From IMG/VR virus record IMGVR_UViG_3300022758_000366: 5,030 nt of DNA. The stretch is one strand, 5' to 3'. Position numbers and translations under genes: made by a program. The notes under the pieces were generated by a model. It worked only from the letters and a program-made list of their open reading frames with translations. It was not told the origin of the DNA and searched no databases. This DNA comes from a virus. Lineage: Duplodnaviria > Heunggongvirae > Uroviricota > Caudoviricetes. How positions within the stretch are numbered: position 1 is the stretch's first letter; each line of letters starts with the position of its first letter. This document shows positions 1 to 5,030 of the stretch, one piece after another.

Positions 1-1848
1 CACATGCCGGGACCATTACCGTCTATGAAGGTTCCAGACCAGGTACGCTGAATGATTTTCTCGGTGCCATGACGGAGGATGAGCCCGTCCGGAGGCACTG
101 CGCCGTTTTGAGCTGATGGTGAATGAAGTGGCACGTCATGCCGGAGCGTCATCACAGAGCGCAGCGGCGGCAAAGAAATCCGAAACTGCAGCGGCATCAT
201 CGAAGAACGCGGCGAAAACCTCAGAAACGAATGCAGCTAATAGTGCACAGGCGGCAGCGACCTCACAGACTGCATCAGAAAACTCCGCGACAGCAGCCAA
301 AAATCAGAAACCAACGCGAAAAATAGCGAGACAGCCGCAAAGACGAGCGAAACCAACGCAAAGTCCAGCCAGACGGCAGCGAAAACCAGCGAAACGAATG
401 CCAAAGACAGTGAAGCCACGCAAAAGGTGAGCGAAACAGCGGCTGCGAACTCAGCGAAAGCATCGGCAGCAAGCCAGACGGCAGCTAAAGCAAGCGAAGA
501 TGCAGCCAGAGAGTACGCAAGCCAGGCTGCGGAGCCGTATAAATATGTCTTACAGCCGCTGCCTGATGTGTGGATACCATTTAACGATTCGCTGGATATG
601 ATTACGGGCTTTTCGCCGTCATATAAAAAGATTGTTATTGGTGATGATGAAATAACGATGCCTGGCGACAAGGTTGTTAAGTTTAAACGCGCATCGAAAG
701 CAACCTATATTAATAAATCTGGTGTGCTGACAGTGGCTGCCATTGACGAGCCACGGTTTGAACGTGATGGCCTGCTTATTGAGGGGCAAAGAACGAACTA
801 CATGCTCAATTCGGAAAGCCCTGCCAGTTGGGGGCGATCGTCAAATATGGATGTTCCCGAAACCGGGACGGATAGTTTTGGTTTTACCTATGGAAAGTTT
901 GTCTGTAACGATTCTCTGATTGGGCAAACCTCAGCCATTAATATGGCATCAATTGCTGCAACAAAGTCAGTTGATGTCTCAGGCGATAATAAATACGTGA
1001 CAACCTCATGTCGTTTTAAAACAGAACTGCAGGTAAGGTTGCGTATCCGATTTGATAAATATGACGGTAGCGCAACAACTTTTCTTGGTGATGTGTATAT
1101 TGATACACAAACGCTTGAAATTAATATGACAGGCGGCGCTGCCTCAAGGATTACAGCGAGAGTCAGAAAGGACGAAGTTATCGGATGGATTTTTGCAGAG
1201 GCAACAATTCAGGCAATTGATGGGGAGTTAAAAATAGGTTCTCAGATACAGTATTCTCCTAAGCAGGGCGGGGCAACCGTATCTGGTGACTATATTTATC
1301 TGGCCACCCCACAAGTAGAAAATGGGCCTTGTGTATCATCTTTTATTATATCAGGAACGACGGCGGCGACCCGCGCAAGCGATATAGTCACAGTTCCCAT
1401 TAAGAATAATCTTTATAATCTTCCTTTTACGGTTCTTTGTGAGGTACATAAGAACTGGTATAAAACGCCAATGCAGCACCGCGTGTTTTTGATACCGGCG
1501 GTCATCAAACCGGAGCGGCTATTATTCTTGGCTTCGGTTCTTCAGCAGATTACGACGGATTTCCTTATTGCGATATTGGTGGGTCTAACAGACGGATAAA
1601 CGAAAATGCATCACTTGAAAAAAATGGTTATGGGGATGCGTGTAAAGTCTGATCAGTCTACATGCGCAGTAAGTAACGGGCGTATATCCAGCGAAACAAA
1701 AACCACATGGTCCTGTATTCAGAACACCGCAATTATCCGTATTGGAGGCCAGACTACAGCCGGGTTACGTCATTTATTTGGTCATGTAAGGAATTTCAGA
1801 ATATGGCACAAGGCATTGACTGATGCTCAGGTGGGGGAGTCAATCTAA
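1..1848 (+). CDS. stf: Side tail fibre protein (lambda Stf-like N-proximal part, Ala/Ser/Thr repeat, LamG-like distal domain); 5' end outside window; reading frame broken as sequenced
   Basis: Frame 3 at 3..113 gives HAGTITVYEGSRPGTLNDFLGAMTEDEP. Frame 2 from 83 gives ARPEALRRFELMVNEVARHAGASSQSAAAAKKSETAAASSKNAAKTSETNAA. Both peptides match my recollection of lambda Stf (HAGTITVYEDSQPGTLNDFLCAMTEDDARPEVLRRLELMVEEVAR). Frame 1 from 299 continues KSETNAKNSETAAKTSETNAK to the stop at 1597-1599. A frame-3 stretch 1482..1649 (DTGGHQTGAAIILGFGSSADYDGFPYCDIGG) and frame 1 at 1651..1848 (ending GLRHLFGHVRNFRIWHKALTDAQVGESI) look like one concanavalin/LamG-type domain. The listed ORFs 116..430, 427..1599 and 1606..1848 are pieces of this one gene; the 'M' at 427 is an internal GTG. 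Confidence 0.85.
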
Positions 1849-2156
1849 TGAAAGATTTAACACTCAAATTTCCCGACAGGGCCGACTTTTCGGCCTTTAT
1901 GGAGAGCATTGGCTATTATGATGACGAGTTGATGCAGGATGATATTCTTATTGACGTGATAGGTAACGTGTACAAAGAAACCGGAGAACTGACTGAAGAT
2001 GGCGAACCGGTATGTGTTAAGGAAGACGGATATTTTGTAAACGTGCGCATCATTATGATGCAAAAAAATCGTCAATATTCGATAAATACGCGGTTGTTGT
2101 TGAGCATCAACTTCGTGGCTGGATGTGAGGGAGACAAATGGCTACATCGACAGTAA
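1848..2156 (+). CDS. Hypothetical small acidic protein (102 aa) in the tail-fibre operon
   Basis: The ATG at 1848 overlaps the stf stop as TAATG (translational coupling). The ORF is rich in Asp/Glu and sits between two fibre genes. Its 3' end overlaps the next ORF by 19 nt in another frame. No family recognised. Confidence 0.45.
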   Translation: MKDLTLKFPDRADFSAFMESIGYYDDELMQDDILIDVIGNVYKETGELTEDGEPVCVKEDGYFVNVRIIMMQKNRQYSINTRLLLSINFVAGCEGDKWLHRQ

Positions 2157-2842
2157 TTCCAGGAGATATCACCACGCTAAAGGGAGATGTCAGTAAAACT
2201 AAGGAAGAGATTTCCTCAATTAACGGAAAAGTATCAACGCTTCAGACTGATATGACCAGTGCAAAGCAGGATATCAGCACCAGATACACAAAAACTGAAG
2301 TTGATAATAAGCTGAAAAACAAAGTGGAAGTGAACGATCTGGAAAGTGGTCGTTATGGCGGAGATTTTTATCCACTGACAGGTCGTGAAGCGTTTTATTT
2401 ATGGAATTTGGCCACGACTACAGCGGCGGCAAACCTTTATCTTAATCCTGACCCCGCAATTTCGTCTGTACTGCGGTCAACATCATCTATCCGCTATAAA
2501 CATTCAGTAGAGACAATAGATTCAGAGCACGCCGATCTCATTTTCAGGATGCGCCCTGTGTGGTACAGGTCGCAATGCGAAAATGACAGGCGTGACTGGG
2601 GATTCTATGGATTGATTGCCGAGGAAGTTGGAGAAATTGCCCCTCAGTTTGTTCACTGGCGACCAGCCAACGAAGATGATGCACCGGAAACCATTTCCAG
2701 CAATGGCCTTGTTGCCGAAGGTGTAATGTACGAACGTCTGGTTGTTCCACTGATTCACCATATCCAGAAACTGACTGAAAGAGTTGATGAACTTGAGTCA
2801 GAGTTAAAGTTGTTATCCGTTTCCCGAAGCGATATCGGATAA
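2138..2842 (+). CDS. Tail fibre/spike-type protein with C-terminal intramolecular chaperone auto-processing (peptidase S74-like) domain
   Basis: GAGGGAG lies about 5 nt upstream of the ATG at 2138, and a frame-2 stop sits at 2126-2128 just before it. The N-terminal half is heptad-like (DITTLKGDVSKTKEEISSINGKVSTLQTD). The C-terminal region SSIRYKHSVETIDSEHADLIFRMRPVWYRS...WGFYGLIAEEVGEIAPQFV...GVMYERLVVPLIHHIQKLTERVDELESELKLL follows the consensus of the endosialidase/T5 LtfA chaperone domain (S-x-x-R-x-K ... GxIAQEV..P ... Y..LvPLl..iqeL...LE). Confidence 0.8.
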   Translation: MATSTVIPGDITTLKGDVSKTKEEISSINGKVSTLQTDMTSAKQDISTRYTKTEVDNKLKNKVEVNDLESGRYGGDFYPLTGREAFYLWNLATTTAAANLYLNPDPAISSVLRSTSSIRYKHSVETIDSEHADLIFRMRPVWYRSQCENDRRDWGFYGLIAEEVGEIAPQFVHWRPANEDDAPETISSNGLVAEGVMYERLVVPLIHHIQKLTERVDELESELKLLSVSRSDIG

Positions 2843-2852
2843 AGGAGGAGTA

Positions 2853-3140
2853 ATGGATATAACACCTTTTCTTCATGCGCTTTGTGCTGTGGCTGCGCAG
2901 GTACTGATTGGCCTTTTTACCGGAAACTGGGCTTACGGTGCGATAGCCGGTTGTACGTTCTTCATTGCGCGTGAACACACCCAGGCAGAATATCGCTGGA
3001 TTGAAATGTTTGGGCATGGCAAGAGGATTAACATGCCGTGGTGGGGCGGTTTTGATCCGCGCGTGTGGGATGTGGCAAGCCTGATGGATTTTGCTGTGCC
3101 GGTGGTGGCGTGTCTGCTGATCTGGATGTTGATCCGTTAA
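2853..3140 (+). CDS. Small integral membrane protein (95 aa, about three hydrophobic helices); moron-position gene, possible superinfection-exclusion or lysogenic-conversion function
   Basis: A strong Shine-Dalgarno AGGAGGAG at 2843-2850 precedes the ATG at 2853. Hydrophobic segments are FLHALCAVAAQVLIGLF, WAYGAIAGCTFFIA and VASLMDFAVPVVACLLIWMLI. It lies between the tail-fibre genes and the att site and is followed by a hairpin. No lipobox. Confidence 0.6.
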   Translation: MDITPFLHALCAVAAQVLIGLFTGNWAYGAIAGCTFFIAREHTQAEYRWIEMFGHGKRINMPWWGGFDPRVWDVASLMDFAVPVVACLLIWMLIR

Positions 3141-3155
3141 ATATAAAAAGTAAAA

Positions 3156-3191
3156 AGCCGCAGTAACTTGTCATGATAGGATACTGCGGCT
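3156..3191 (+). terminator. Stem-loop downstream of the membrane-protein gene (possible intrinsic terminator)
   Basis: AGCCGCAGTA (3156-3165) pairs with TACTGCGGCT (3182-3191), a 10-bp stem around a 16-nt loop, 16 nt after the stop at 3138-3140. The following sequence GGTTAACTTTCG is only weakly T-rich. Confidence 0.3.
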
Positions 3192-3485
3192 GGTTAACTT
3201 TCGATAGTGCGAGTATTGAATGATTTCCAGCCGTTACCGATTTTATATAACTGCAGTGGAATTATTCAACACACAGGCAAAACGGAATAAGCTGAGAAAA
3301 AAAGCGTGCTTACCCAATCTGGGGTAAATCACGTCTGAATGACACCTGAAAACAGGTGGTGGCCTCAAGAAGGCTTGGAATATTCTTCTTTAATGTTATG
3401 TAATTTATTGATTTTTCGTGTACGATTTTAAGACATTTATTCCAAGAAAAGTTTTTAACTCTTTGATTTTTCGACTCTGTATCAT

Positions 3486-3547
3486 CGGTCTCGAAAACCG
3501 GAGTGGGGGCAACTCCACCGGGGGTTCAAATCCCCCTCTCTCCGCCA
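3486..3547 (+). other. 3' portion of a tRNA-Ser(CGA) gene (anticodon stem-loop to CCA); not a complete tRNA; att core
   Basis: CGGT-CTCGAAA-ACCGG gives an anticodon loop with anticodon CGA. A long class-II variable arm AGTGGGGGCAACTCCAC follows, then T arm GGGGG-TTCAAAT-CCCCC, acceptor 3' strand TCTCTCC, discriminator G and CCA. Nearly identical to my recollection of E. coli serU from the anticodon stem onward. The upstream sequence TTTTTCGACTCTGTATCAT cannot form the acceptor 5' strand or D arm. Confidence 0.8.
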
Positions 3548-3592
3548 AAATTCAATCACTTACACATCATTAAGTCAGTGACAAAAATCACA

Positions 3593-3628
3593 CTTGGAAT
3601 TACTTGGAATATTTTCTTGGAATATTTT
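3593..3628 (+). repeat. Three tandem direct repeats CTTGGAAT(T/A)TT(TT): putative integrase arm-type binding sites (P' arm)
   Basis: Units at 3593-3602, 3603-3615 and 3616-3628. The same 11-mer recurs at 3374-3384 and inverted at 3435-3446. The repeats overlap the last codons and stop of the int fragment. Confidence 0.55.
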
Positions 3629-3945
3629 CAGGTAACGGGACATCAAGTGTTGGTGAAACTTTAACCTTCCTGTCATAGATTAGCACTTGCCCTTCGGTTT
3701 TGTGACCAGAGAAAAGTTGCTTATCCCGGCTGCTTCCTTCATAGTCTGAAATTCCTTTCGCCTTCAGATCATGAAAGGTGAAGTCGGTTAAAATACCTGA
3801 AATTTTTCCAGCACGATTTCTTGCTTCTACCCACATTTCGTTAAAGCCTTTGTACATATATCGGTTGCCGTATTGATTGCTGATCACATAGGCAGATTTT
3901 GGTAACTGTTTTGCTTTTCGATCGCTGCCTGTAATCGTGGACTCC
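3600..3945 (-). pseudogene. int: Tyrosine integrase (lambda Int family), C-terminal fragment only; N-terminal and core-binding domains absent
   Basis: The C-terminal ~100 residues of the 3600..4199 ORF (AYVISNQYGNRYMYKGFNEMWVEARNRAGKISGILTDFTFHDLKAKGISDYEGSSRDKQLFSGHKTEGQVLIYDRK) align by eye with the lambda Int C-terminus (TFHELRSLSARLYEKQISDKFAQHLLGHKSDTMASQYRDDR), including the His, the GHK His and the Tyr nucleophile. The Arg of H-x-L-R is Lys here. Nothing upstream resembles the first catalytic Arg/Lys region. The 3' end abuts the att site. The boundary at ~3945 is approximate. Confidence 0.7.
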
Positions 3946-4407
3946 ATGCTTTTATCTGTATCTTTATCTGTCGTGACTCGTCGTGACATGTGCGTGACAT
4001 TTCGTGACGCGCCGTGACAATCGCCATTTTGTTCCCGCTTTCTTTCCCTCTCTCGCTGCGCCCTCTTGCGCTCTGCAGGAGATTTTGCGGTTTGCGAAAT
4101 ATTGCCGTTGTCCTCTTTAAGCACCTGGCGTTTTTCCCATCCAGTGATTAAATCACCATCAAGTACCCGCCCCTGCATCGTCTGCAAAATTTGAATCAAT
4201 TACCTCTTCTGTCACGTCGAGCGCACTTGCCAAATCTTCTGTCGTGACATCAATGTGACCTCGCGTGACATTTCGTGACGCGCTCACCAGGAGGTGGATA
4301 TACACTGCCATCACTGTTGCAATTGGCTGCCCTGACACCCTGGCAATTGTTCGCCACTTAGGGTCATTTGGCATGTCATGCCATAATCTGAGCCAGGCGT
4401 TAGCCAT
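3946..4407 (-). CDS. Putative phage replication initiator (YdaU/DUF1376-like N-terminus, from memory), frameshifted and continuous with the int fragment
   Basis: ATG at 4407 with SD GAGGTGAG. The N-terminus MANAWLRLWHDMPNDPKWRTIARVSGQPIATVMAVYIHLL resembles the W..Y....DPK N-terminal motif I recall for DUF1376/YdaU-like initiators. A frame change lies near 4160-4200, after which the sequence continues as QGRVLDGDLITGWEKRQ...ERKRAQRERERK. Iteron-like repeats are embedded in the coding sequence. Sits immediately downstream of a YdaT-like gene, as in the Rac ydaS-ydaT-ydaU-ydaV module. The 3' boundary is approximate. Confidence 0.45.
3972..4279. repeat. Iteron-like CGTGAC direct repeats with ~10-11 bp phasing (putative replication origin inside the initiator gene)
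   Basis: CGTGAC starts at 3972, 3982, 3993, 4003 and 4013, then at 4243, 4254 (TGTGAC), 4264 and 4274, with an inverted GTCACG at 4211-4216. An identical 21-mer GCGTGACATTTCGTGACGCGC occurs at 3992-4012 and 4263-4283. An AT-rich block with TATCTG repeats lies at 3948-3970. Confidence 0.55.
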
Positions 4408-4479
4408 ACTCACCTCTTCTGATACCGAATCTTTTTTACTCACGAGTTGCCGGAAGCGATTCGATATGGCTATTATCAC

Positions 4480-4904
4480 TCAATGCACTGCCACAGCATT
4501 TCCTGCCGGGCCACCACGGTTCATCTGATTGAAACCGGCGATTGCCACTGCGACAAAATCATCGGCGTCTCTCACCAGTCGCTCCCGCGTCTCCACCAGC
4601 TCCCGAAATAAGCTGAACTGTGGCTACGCATTCTGGCCACCAGCAAAGGTGGCATTGCCTTTTCGATCGCTGGTACAACGCCTGAATTTTTTCAACTGCA
4701 TCAGGGGTGTCTTTCTCTACCCAGCGGAAAATTTTCTGGGTATTGCGAGCCAGGGCTTCCGGATGGCTGTCGTCGTACAGTTCAGGAAACGTCATACCCA
4801 ACTCAAAATAAGCCTGGGTTATTCCAGCTGCCGGAACTTTTTTCGCCATCAGGACGCGCCCAGGCATTCATCGCCATGCGGATGTGTTCATGCTTGATTT
4901 TCAT
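4480..4904 (-). CDS. YdaT-like protein (Rac prophage ydaT family, assignment from memory), interrupted by two frame changes as sequenced
   Basis: ATG at 4904-4902 is preceded by AAGGGGGG. The frame gives MKIKHEHIRMAMNAWARPDGEK, then after the T6 run at 4838-4843 a second frame gives VPAAGITQAYFELGMTFPELYDDSHPEALARNTQKIFRWVEKDTPDAVEKIQALYQRS, and a third frame (ELVETRERLVRDADDFVAVAIAGFNQMNRGGPAGNAVAVH) ends at the stop 4480-4482 just before the next gene's RBS. Removing two single-base insertions gives 141 codons, which matches my recollection that YdaT is 140 aa. Confidence 0.45.
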
Positions 4905-5030
4905 GAATCCCCCCTTGGTTAGAAGGCGGATTATGATCAGAACCGGGAATGACAACCGTCGGTATGTGTAACTCATATTTGAGCGCCCCCGGCAGTGACT
5001 GCCTGAATTAGCAACGCCCATTTCCACGGC

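What the first reader, a model, noticed from the sequence alone, without database searches (positions are those of the whole stretch)
1..4904. Seven or more frame breaks, nearly all at homopolymer runs, across unrelated genes
Frame changes are needed near 84-86 (C3), 299-303 (A5), 1486-1490 (T5) and 1618-1624 (A7) in stf, near 4166-4192 (C/G and A/T runs) in the initiator, and at 4838-4843 (T6) and within 4562-4623 in the YdaT-like gene. The homopolymer association and the mix of +1 and -1 changes are typical of indel errors from long-read sequencing. Genuine decay of a cryptic prophage is the alternative. Every gene call here depends on which is true.
Basis: seen in the sequence. Interest (0 to 1): 0.5.

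Follow-up and report, generated by a model that had tools for sequence, protein, structure and literature searches.

The report
Sequencing indel errors in phage DNA
The many broken reading frames in this stretch of E. coli phage DNA are almost certainly single-base miscounts made during sequencing or assembly, not real gene decay, so the genes should be read as intact and the finding is an artefact.

Summary
Against the closest public relatives the window carries 14 one-base insertions or deletions. Six fall in the side tail fibre gene, one in a 93-aa gene, one in an integrase fragment, one in the replisome-organizer fragment, three in ydaT, one in cro and one between genes.

Over the roughly 4.75 kb where an otherwise identical relative exists, there are 11 one-base indels and a single substitution. 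All events are exactly 1 base. The hit rate per run rises from 0.04% for single bases to 50% for 6-base runs. None is shared by ancestry with any relative examined. Undoing them restores every reading frame found in those relatives.

Real decay, even in mismatch-repair-deficient E. coli, gives about six substitutions per indel and a range of indel sizes. I conclude these are consensus errors of an error-prone, probably long-read, assembly (confidence about 0.9).

What is really here is the attP region of a lambdoid phage that integrates at the serU tRNA-Ser gene. One separate lesion is not a homopolymer miscall: a private, inverted junction at 3951-3959 joining an integrase fragment to a replisome-organizer fragment. 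It is either a chimeric assembly or a real rearrangement.

The parts
3..1848 (+). Side tail fibre gene (stf), with its 5' end cut by the window start. It is broken into four frames by six one-base indels. After repair it is one open 615-aa frame.
   Evidence: Pfam PF08400 phage_tail_N, E = 1e-25. Repaired frame. Intact 791-793 aa homologues in L001, L007, L010-L014 and L020.
82..83 (+). One-base deletion: the T between 82 and 83 is missing (GATGATGCC became GATGAGCC). It is not in a homopolymer.
   Evidence: L008 is identical to the window over 1-147 except for this gap.
299..303 (+). A5 where relatives have A6 (one-base deletion in stf).
   Evidence: One unrelated assembly (L015, GCA_024766115.1) shows the same A5 on a different haplotype.
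418..425 (+). Compensating pair: A1 at 418 (relatives A2) and A4 at 422-425 (relatives A3). It changes two codons (NA to TQ) and then the frame returns.
   Evidence: CCAACGCAAAGG in all relatives, CCACGCAAAAGG in the window.
1470..1471 (+). A2 where relatives have A3 (one-base deletion in stf).
1618..1624 (+). A7 where relatives have A6 (one-base insertion in stf).
734..734 (+). The only substitution against near-identical relatives: T where all 15 relatives that carry the flanking 15-mers have A (codon GAG Glu to GTG Val).
1848..2128 (+). 93-aa gene of unknown function downstream of stf. It is broken by a one-base deletion at 2055 (A1 vs A2), which makes the apparent ORF run on to 2156.
   Evidence: Intact 93-aa gene in all ten loci. 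Repaired translation.
2138..2842 (+). Intact 234-aa tail fibre domain protein with an endosialidase-chaperone (Peptidase_S74) domain.
   Evidence: Pfam PF13884, E = 7e-6. Exact product found in many public contigs.
2853..3140 (+). Intact 95-aa hydrophobic protein of unknown function.
   Evidence: exact product in many contigs.
3188..3191 (.). One GGCT unit where some relatives have two. This is a natural polymorphism, not an error.
   Evidence: The same allele is in L012, L013, L014, L017 and L020.
3486..3547 (+). attP core: the 3' 62 nt of tRNA-Ser (serU). The left arm is identical to the prophage attR side and the right arm to the attL side of the same prophage in E. coli EC21GDE043.
   Evidence: ARAGORN finds no complete tRNA. 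The same attP is present in IMG/VR contig L020 and metagenome contigs L021-L023.
3600..3959 (-). C-terminal fragment of about 120 codons of the serU-phage tyrosine integrase, carrying a one-base deletion at 3915-3918 (T4 vs T5).
   Evidence: Pfam PF00589 is weak, E = 0.004, below the cut-off. The full 341-aa gene is in L020.
3951..3959 (.). Junction with 9-base microhomology (TTTATCTGT). It joins the integrase interior to the replisome-organizer interior in inverted orientation relative to the normal phage map.
   Evidence: Absent from 5,426 E. coli genomes and from the viral, GTDB-genome and metagenome collections.
3951..4407 (-). N-terminal fragment of about 150 codons of a phage replisome-organizer gene, with two clusters of CGTGAC repeats (possible iterons). 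It carries a one-base insertion at 4190-4192 (T3 vs T2).
4432..4437 (.). T6 where relatives have T5. This is an intergenic one-base insertion between the replisome-organizer start and the ydaT stop.
4480..4904 (-). ydaT-family gene (141 aa when repaired) broken by three one-base indels: 4606-4608 (A3 vs A4), 4675 (A1 vs A2) and 4838-4843 (T6 vs T5).
   Evidence: Pfam PF06254 YdaT_toxin, E = 7e-10.
4888..5030 (-). 3' part of a Cro/CI-family regulator gene, cut by the window end, with a one-base insertion at 4986-4990 (C5 vs C4).

Best explanation
The window is a consensus sequence of low per-base accuracy, about 280 indels per 100 kb, of real E. coli lambdoid phage DNA. The underlying DNA encodes intact stf, 93-aa, ydaT and cro genes. 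When the consensus was built, the length of short runs of identical bases was miscounted by one at 14 places, more often the longer the run. Each miscount shifts the reading frame.

Shown here:
- The indels exist.
- They are not shared by descent with any relative examined.
- They are all one base.
- Their rate depends on run length.
- They vastly outnumber substitutions.
- They hit coding and non-coding DNA alike.
- Reversing them recreates the proteins annotated in relatives.

Inferred, not shown: that the cause is base-calling or consensus error of a long-read (or other run-miscounting) platform, rather than mutation.
For: 1. Indel to substitution ratio.
- 430-2055 vs L007: 1 mismatch and 3 one-base indels.
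- 1942-3959 vs IMG/VR contig L020: 0 mismatches and 2 one-base indels.
- 3951-5029 vs L003: 0 mismatches and 6 one-base indels.
- 1-147 vs L008: 0 mismatches and 1 indel.
- Total: 11 indels to 1 substitution. Mismatch-repair-deficient E. coli mutation-accumulation lines gave 30,061 substitutions to 5,324 indels (PMC8510543). At that 15% indel share, P(at least 11 of 12) = 9e-9.

2. Indel size. All 14 events are exactly 1 base. In curated real bacterial pseudogenes only 131 of 396 deletions are 1 nt (PMC6054270), so P(8 of 8) = 1.4e-4.

3. Not shared.
- In each segment search of the 5,426 complete E. coli genomes, the best hit differed from the window at all of that segment's indel sites (best-hit alignments).
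- No indel allele occurs in the first 19 loci fetched (L001-L019), apart from one homoplasic A5 in L015.
- Contigs L020-L023 carry the intact state at every indel site that each covers.
- Three frameshift-specific ORF products are absent from an index of 153 billion gene positions.
- One indel-bearing 41-mer is absent from the viral and GTDB collections.

4. Run-length dependence.

5. One indel is intergenic and the rest are spread over six unrelated genes or gene fragments.

6. Repairing the 14 sites gives open frames identical to those of the relatives.

7. The density of 278 per 100 kb is in the range reported for old-chemistry long-read assemblies, up to 187 per 100 kb (PMC12007338). That paper also reports an A/T-run bias and occasional loss of non-repeated bases.
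Against: - No reads, quality values or assembly metadata are available, so the error itself is not observed.
- The reference relatives were picked as the best of thousands for each mosaic segment, which biases the substitution count downward.
- Replication slippage in vivo also prefers homopolymers.
- The indels are unevenly spread. None falls in 2057-3914 although 16 runs of 5 or more lie there (expected 5.7, P about 0.003). A uniform error process does not predict this.
- Absence from other genomes was tested through best hits and 23 aligned loci, not by an exhaustive allele scan.
Confidence: 0.9

Rival explanations
1. Genuine decay. The element is a defective prophage or phage remnant whose genes are no longer under selection and have accumulated real frameshift mutations by replication slippage.
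For: - Slippage favours homopolymers.
- The window does carry one structural lesion typical of defective elements: integrase and replisome organizer are both truncated and fused at 3951-3959.
- Prophage genes are often dispensable.
- One of the 14 alleles (A5 at 299-303) is seen in another public assembly.
Against: - 11 indels to 1 substitution, where neutral decay predicts several substitutions per indel (P about 1e-8 even with mutator spectra, PMC8510543).
- No indel larger than 1 base, no nonsense mutation and no IS element, whereas real pseudogenes show a broad size range (PMC6054270).
- Half the hits are in runs of 1-3 bases. From my own recollection of mutation-accumulation data, not checked here, in-vivo slippage is very rare in such short runs.
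- None of the indels is shared by descent with any relative.
- The DNA is otherwise identical to intact, apparently active phages, including an attP-form viral contig. That leaves essentially no evolutionary time for 14 events.
Confidence: 0.05
2. Real mutations from an extreme frameshift-prone background, such as a host lacking mismatch repair or carrying a proofreading or slippage-prone polymerase defect, acting over a short time.
For: Mismatch-repair loss raises homopolymer indel rates strongly, and the rate rises exponentially with run length (PMC8510543).
Against: - Even without mismatch repair, substitutions outnumber indels about 6 to 1 (PMC8510543). Here the ratio is 1 to 11.
- A density of 2.8 indels per kb across a genome would destroy every essential gene.
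- Many hits are in runs of 1-3 bases.
Confidence: 0.01
3. Functional recoding or phase variation. The frame breaks are real and are bypassed by programmed ribosomal frameshifting or transcriptional slippage, or they switch genes on and off.
For: Some phage tail genes use programmed frameshifts, and long A or T runs can support transcriptional slippage. Both points are my own knowledge, not tested here.
Against: - Homologues in all relatives are single uninterrupted frames.
- The breaks are not conserved anywhere.
- Runs are short (1-7 bases).
- There are several breaks per gene in both directions, and one is intergenic.
Confidence: 0.01
4. Mixed case. The 14 point indels are artefacts, but the inverted integrase/replisome-organizer junction at 3951-3959 is a real rearrangement, namely an inversion between int and the replication gene of the phage, so the element is truly defective. 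This concerns only the junction and is compatible with the best explanation for the frame breaks.
For: - Nine bases of microhomology at the joint are typical of illegitimate recombination.
- A single inversion between int and the replication gene reproduces exactly the observed order and strands (map of L006).
Against: - The junction is found nowhere else.
- From my own knowledge, inverted joints with short microhomology are also the signature of amplification chimeras.
- The closest relative of the replication module sits in a different prophage with a different integrase.
- The surrounding consensus is demonstrably unreliable.
Confidence: 0.4

Closest known systems
Gene-fragmenting homopolymer indel errors in long-read bacterial assemblies (as described in PMC12007338, the Kastor paper)
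   Same: - One-base insertions and deletions that split genes.
- Concentrated in A/T runs, with occasional loss of a non-repeated base.
- Present in coding and intergenic DNA.
- Density of the order of 100-300 per 100 kb for old-chemistry or unpolished assemblies.
- Detectable by comparison with close references.
   Different: - The platform and polishing history of this window are unknown.
- Insertions (6) are nearly as common as deletions (8).
- A central 1.9-kb stretch is error-free.
Lambdoid, Rac-like prophage integrated at the serU tRNA-Ser gene of E. coli (for example strain EC21GDE043, NZ_CP099721.1 2,014,072-2,056,300), and its attP-form viral contig IMGVR_UViG_3300022758_000316
   Same: - Identical DNA over window 1942-3959 except for two one-base indels.
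- Same gene order: stf, 93-aa, 234-aa and 95-aa genes.
- Same att core and arms, and same integrase.
   Different: - The stf receptor-binding part (430-2055) matches another prophage lineage (L007).
- Integrase is cut at 3959 and joined, inverted, to a replisome-organizer/ydaT/cro module. The closest relative of that module lies in a prophage next to potC with a different integrase.
Genuine bacterial pseudogene decay (PMC6054270)
   Same: Multiple frame-disrupting indels per gene.
   Different: - Real pseudogenes show indels of many sizes, with only a third of deletions being 1 nt.
- Real pseudogenes accumulate substitutions alongside indels and are inherited by related strains. None of this is seen here.

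Membership tests
Sequencing or assembly indel artefact (run-length miscounts) | Differences from the true sequence are overwhelmingly one-base insertions or deletions, with few substitutions | tested here: met
   14 one-base indels. 11 indels to 1 substitution where otherwise identical relatives exist.
Sequencing or assembly indel artefact (run-length miscounts) | Error probability rises with homopolymer length | tested here: met
   Per-run hit rate rises from 0.0004 at length 1 to 0.5 at length 6; resampling P < 5e-6.
Sequencing or assembly indel artefact (run-length miscounts) | Indels are private to the assembly, not inherited by relatives | tested here: met
   Not in the best hits among 5,426 E. 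coli genomes, nor in the 23 loci aligned or scanned. Three frameshift products absent from the gene index. One allele (A5 at 299-303) recurs on an unrelated haplotype.
Sequencing or assembly indel artefact (run-length miscounts) | Indels are indifferent to coding and non-coding sequence, and their reversal restores known proteins | tested here: met
   One intergenic hit and 13 hits in six genes or gene fragments.
Sequencing or assembly indel artefact (run-length miscounts) | Errors spread roughly evenly over comparable sequence | tested here: not met
   No hit in 2057-3914 despite 16 runs of 5 or more (expected 5.7; P about 0.003). Uneven coverage or repeat-limited polishing could explain it, but this was not tested.
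Sequencing or assembly indel artefact (run-length miscounts) | Accurate reads from the same DNA contradict the consensus at these sites | not testable with these tools
   The source record was not found in any collection. No reads are available.
Genuine pseudogenes of a decaying cryptic prophage | Lesions shared by related strains carrying the same element | tested here: not met
   All relatives carry the intact state.
Genuine pseudogenes of a decaying cryptic prophage | Substitutions accumulate along with indels, and indel sizes vary | tested here: not met
   One substitution to 11 indels. All indels are 1 base (PMC8510543, PMC6054270).
Genuine pseudogenes of a decaying cryptic prophage | Element fixed in the chromosome between attL and attR | tested here: not met
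   The window carries attP, with phage arms on both sides of the tRNA-Ser core.
Programmed frameshift or transcriptional slippage site | The frame break is conserved among homologues and sits at a dedicated slippery sequence | tested here: not met
   Homologues are single frames in every relative. The breaks are at varied short runs.
attP of a serU (tRNA-Ser) integrating lambdoid phage | A tRNA 3' segment flanked on one side by the tail-fibre end of the phage and on the other by the integrase gene, matching the phage arms of attR and attL of an integrated copy | tested here: met
   Window 3486-3547 equals the 3' 62 nt of tRNA-Ser. The arms are identical to L002 (attR side) and L005 (attL side) of one prophage. 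The same arrangement is in independent viral and metagenome contigs.

The most novel reading that the evidence does not exclude
The sequence is accurate. It would be a real, recently arisen phage derivative in circular or tandem attP form, with an int-to-replication-gene inversion, that picked up 14 one-base frameshifts with almost no substitutions. That would point to an unknown, strongly frameshift-specific mutational process acting on phage DNA.
Probability: 0.02. Interest if true: 0.5.

Novelty: not a real feature. Interest (0 to 1): 0.05.

Why it matters
It matters only for annotation. Every gene call in this window, and probably in the whole source assembly, is corrupted. The tail fibre, the 93-aa gene, ydaT and cro should be annotated from the repaired frames, not as pseudogenes. 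Counts of pseudogenes or 'cryptic prophage decay' drawn from this assembly would be inflated. The window also illustrates a cheap test: one-base-only indels, no substitutions, and no sharing with relatives together separate consensus errors from real decay without any reads.

Tried and rejected
- Finding the source record. Exact look-ups of three frameshift-specific ORF products found nothing. Scans with an indel-bearing 41-mer (viral and GTDB genomes) and with the junction 50-mer (GTDB, viral, metagenome) also found nothing. The flanking core genes therefore could not be checked for the same error rate.
- Searches of the phage and plasmid collections with the whole window gave only partial, 94-96% identical hits.
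- Look-ups of the intact 95-aa and 234-aa proteins returned many contigs, but not the source.
- A complete tRNA was considered. ARAGORN finds none, and only the 3' part of tRNA-Ser is present, as expected for an att site.
- The 4-base difference at 3188 was first counted as an error, then dropped because several relatives share it.
- The A7 run at 3297-3303 differs from some relatives but equals others, so it is a natural polymorphism.
- The idea that the error-free centre reflects single-copy sequence that short reads could polish was probed through copy-number statistics, without a clear answer.
- The paper I remembered for run-length-specific indel rates in E. coli could not be fetched. The statement that in-vivo slippage is rare in runs of 1-3 bases therefore rests on my own knowledge.

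Full report
**What the window is.** BLAST against 5,426 complete E. coli genomes shows that every part of the window is E. coli lambdoid-phage DNA, but no genome holds more than 71% of it in one place. It is a mosaic of four segments, each with a near-identical relative.
- 430-2055 is the distal part of the side tail fibre gene stf. It matches strain 2013C-4282 (L007) with one mismatch.
- 1942-3959 matches a prophage at the serU tRNA-Ser gene of strain EC21GDE043 (L002, L005, L006) and IMG/VR viral contig UViG_3300022758_000316 (L020), with no mismatch.
- 3951-5029 matches a replisome-organizer/ydaT/cro module found in isolate GPT24-02 (L003), with no mismatch.
- 1-147 matches strain HS13-1 (L008), with no mismatch.
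- 148-430 lies in the repetitive Ala/Ser/Thr-rich part of stf and has only about 95% identical relatives.

**Gene content.** Coordinates are in the window; proteins were scanned after repair.
- stf, 3-1848 (+), Pfam phage_tail_N.
- A 93-aa gene, 1848-2128 (+).
- A 234-aa tail fibre domain protein with a Peptidase_S74 chaperone domain, 2138-2842 (+).
- A 95-aa hydrophobic protein, 2853-3140 (+).
- attP with the 3' 62 nt of tRNA-Ser, 3486-3547.
- An integrase C-terminal fragment, 3600-3959 (-).
- A replisome-organizer N-terminal fragment, 3951-4407 (-).
- ydaT, 4480-4904 (-).
- The 3' part of a Cro/CI-family gene, 4888-5030 (-).

**Checking the observation.** Alignment to these relatives shows 14 one-base indels.
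- A missing T between 82 and 83.
- A5 for A6 at 299-303.
- A1 for A2 at 418, together with A4 for A3 at 422-425. This pair compensates.
- A2 for A3 at 1470-1471.
- A7 for A6 at 1618-1624.
- A1 for A2 at 2055.
- T4 for T5 at 3915-3918.
- T3 for T2 at 4190-4192.
- T6 for T5 at 4432-4437, which is intergenic.
- A3 for A4 at 4606-4608.
- A1 for A2 at 4675.
- T6 for T5 at 4838-4843.
- C5 for C4 at 4986-4990.

Two are misplaced by a few bases to about 15 bases: the C3 run at 84-86 and the T5 run at 1486-1490 are both unchanged. Seven indels at six sites were missed.

The link with runs of identical bases is strong. The hit rate per run is 0.04% for single bases, 0.6% for runs of 2, 1.2% for 3, 3% for 4, 12% for 5 and 50% for 6. 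No resampling out of 200,000 reached the observed mean run length. A 4-base difference at 3188 (one GGCT unit instead of two) is shared with several relatives, so it is a natural polymorphism.

**Error or decay?** Four lines of evidence point the same way.
- Ratio of indels to substitutions. Over the roughly 4.75 kb for which an otherwise identical relative exists, the window differs by 11 one-base indels and one substitution. That substitution is 734 T; all 15 relatives with the flanking sequence have A. In mutation-accumulation lines of mismatch-repair-deficient E. coli, the most indel-prone natural regime with selection removed, 30,061 substitutions accompanied 5,324 indels (PMC8510543). 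At that 15% share, 11 or more indels among 12 differences has probability 9e-9. Wild-type ratios are lower still: PMC6054270 states that indel rates are about an order of magnitude below substitution rates.
- Indel size. All events are exactly one base. In curated real pseudogenes only 131 of 396 deletions are 1 nt, and the mean deletion is about 19 nt (PMC6054270). Eight of eight then has P = 1.4e-4.
- No sharing by descent.
  - The best hits among 5,426 genomes lack the indels.
  - Loci L001-L019 were scanned for each indel allele and none has one by descent. The single recurrence, A5 at 299-303 in GCA_024766115.1, sits on a haplotype with 27 mismatches to the window in 1-414, so it is an independent event at the same hot spot.
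  - The four attP-form contigs L020-L023 have the intact state at every site they cover.
  - Three ORF products created by the frameshifts are absent from an index of 153 billion gene positions.
- Indifference to coding. One indel is intergenic and the others fall in six unrelated genes or gene fragments. Reversing all 14 recreates uninterrupted frames identical to those of the relatives.

The density of 278 per 100 kb is of the order reported for old-chemistry long-read assemblies, up to 187 per 100 kb. The bias to A/T runs, with occasional loss of a non-repeated base, is also described there (PMC12007338). I therefore rate consensus error at about 0.9.

**Caveats.**
- The relatives were chosen as the best among thousands for each mosaic segment, which minimises apparent substitutions.
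- No reads or metadata are available, and the platform cannot be inferred.
- The indels are not evenly spread. Seven lie in 1-2056, seven in 3915-5030, and none in 2057-3914, although that stretch holds 16 runs of five or more (expected 5.7 hits, P about 0.003).
- Neither random error nor neutral decay predicts that gap. Uneven coverage, or short-read polishing that fails in multi-copy prophage modules, would explain it, but I could not test this (one search was uninformative).

**What else is there.**
- The window is not an ordinary integrated prophage. Around the tRNA-Ser core, the left arm equals the phage side of attR and the right arm equals the phage side of attL of the EC21GDE043 prophage. 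The site is therefore attP.
- The same attP arrangement, with intact stf (793 aa), 93-aa, 234-aa and 95-aa genes and integrase (341 aa), occurs in an independent IMG/VR contig and in three metagenome contigs. The phage therefore exists in excised or virion form.
- At 3951-3959 the integrase gene stops being integrase. Across nine bases of microhomology (TTTATCTGT) it continues as the interior of a replisome-organizer gene. Orientation is inverted relative to the normal lambdoid map, where int and the replication genes are divergent.
- This junction is absent from all E. coli genomes and from the viral, GTDB and metagenome collections.
- One inversion between int and the replication gene would produce exactly this layout, but so would a chimeric molecule or a mis-join. 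The closest relative of the replication module belongs to a prophage next to potC with a different integrase.
- I leave this at roughly even odds. It is the only lesion in the window that could represent true defectiveness.

**Comparison with the known, and verdict.** The point lesions match the known class of gene-fragmenting homopolymer indel errors in error-prone assemblies. They fail the defining tests of genuine pseudogenes (inheritance, accompanying substitutions, varied lesion sizes) and of programmed frameshift sites (conservation, dedicated slippery sequence). Nothing here is a new biological feature. The practical consequence is that gene calls from this sequence, and probably from its whole source assembly, need re-polishing or reference-guided frame repair. 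Interest is low.

Noticed in passing
window 3486-3547 with arms about 3440-3620: The window carries attP of a phage that integrates at the serU tRNA-Ser gene. The 3' 62 nt of the tRNA are flanked by the phage arms of both attR and attL. The DNA therefore comes from a circular, virion or tandem form, not from a single integrated prophage. The same attP is found in IMG/VR contig L020 and metagenome contigs L021-L023.
   Followed up: yes
window 3951-3959: A private junction with 9-base microhomology (TTTATCTGT) joins the interior of the integrase gene to the interior of a replisome-organizer gene in inverted orientation. It is absent from every collection searched. It is either a real inversion or a chimeric assembly.
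   Followed up: partly
window 2057-3914: There are no indels in this 1.86-kb centre although it holds 16 runs of 5 or more identical bases (expected about 5.7). The errors cluster in the two flanks.
   Followed up: partly
window 3967-4019 and 4238-4280: Two clusters of CGTGAC-type repeats (five and four copies) lie inside the replisome-organizer coding sequence. They resemble in-gene iterons of a lambdoid replication origin.
   Followed up: partly
L015 and L029 (GCA_024766115.1), position equivalent to window 299-303: An unrelated public assembly shows the same A6 to A5 change in its stf gene, and no stf gene was called there. This suggests either another assembly error or a true slippage hot spot.
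   Followed up: partly
L005 3021-4071 and L009 1521-2571 (integrase of the serU prophage in two RefSeq genomes): PGAP annotates this integrase as 'frameshifted' in two independent genomes, although a single 341-aa frame is open across it. The label probably comes from comparison with a longer reference protein.
   Followed up: partly
L012, L015, L016 and L018, downstream of the att site (locus coordinates about 6700-12288): In several genomes the prophage is followed at the same serU site by a second island encoding DUF6387, AlpA, H-NS-like and RepL-like proteins. It looks like a satellite or integrative element sharing the attachment site.
   Followed up: no
window 330-430 compared with L001 4416-4717 and L007 3670-3971: The Ala/Ser/Thr-rich repeat region of stf is about 300 bases shorter than in some relatives, but the same length as in L008. 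This is natural repeat-number variation, or collapse in assembly.
   Followed up: no
window 734: The single substitution (T; all 15 relatives have A; Glu to Val in stf) is also private to the window. It may be a substitution error or a real SNP.
   Followed up: partly
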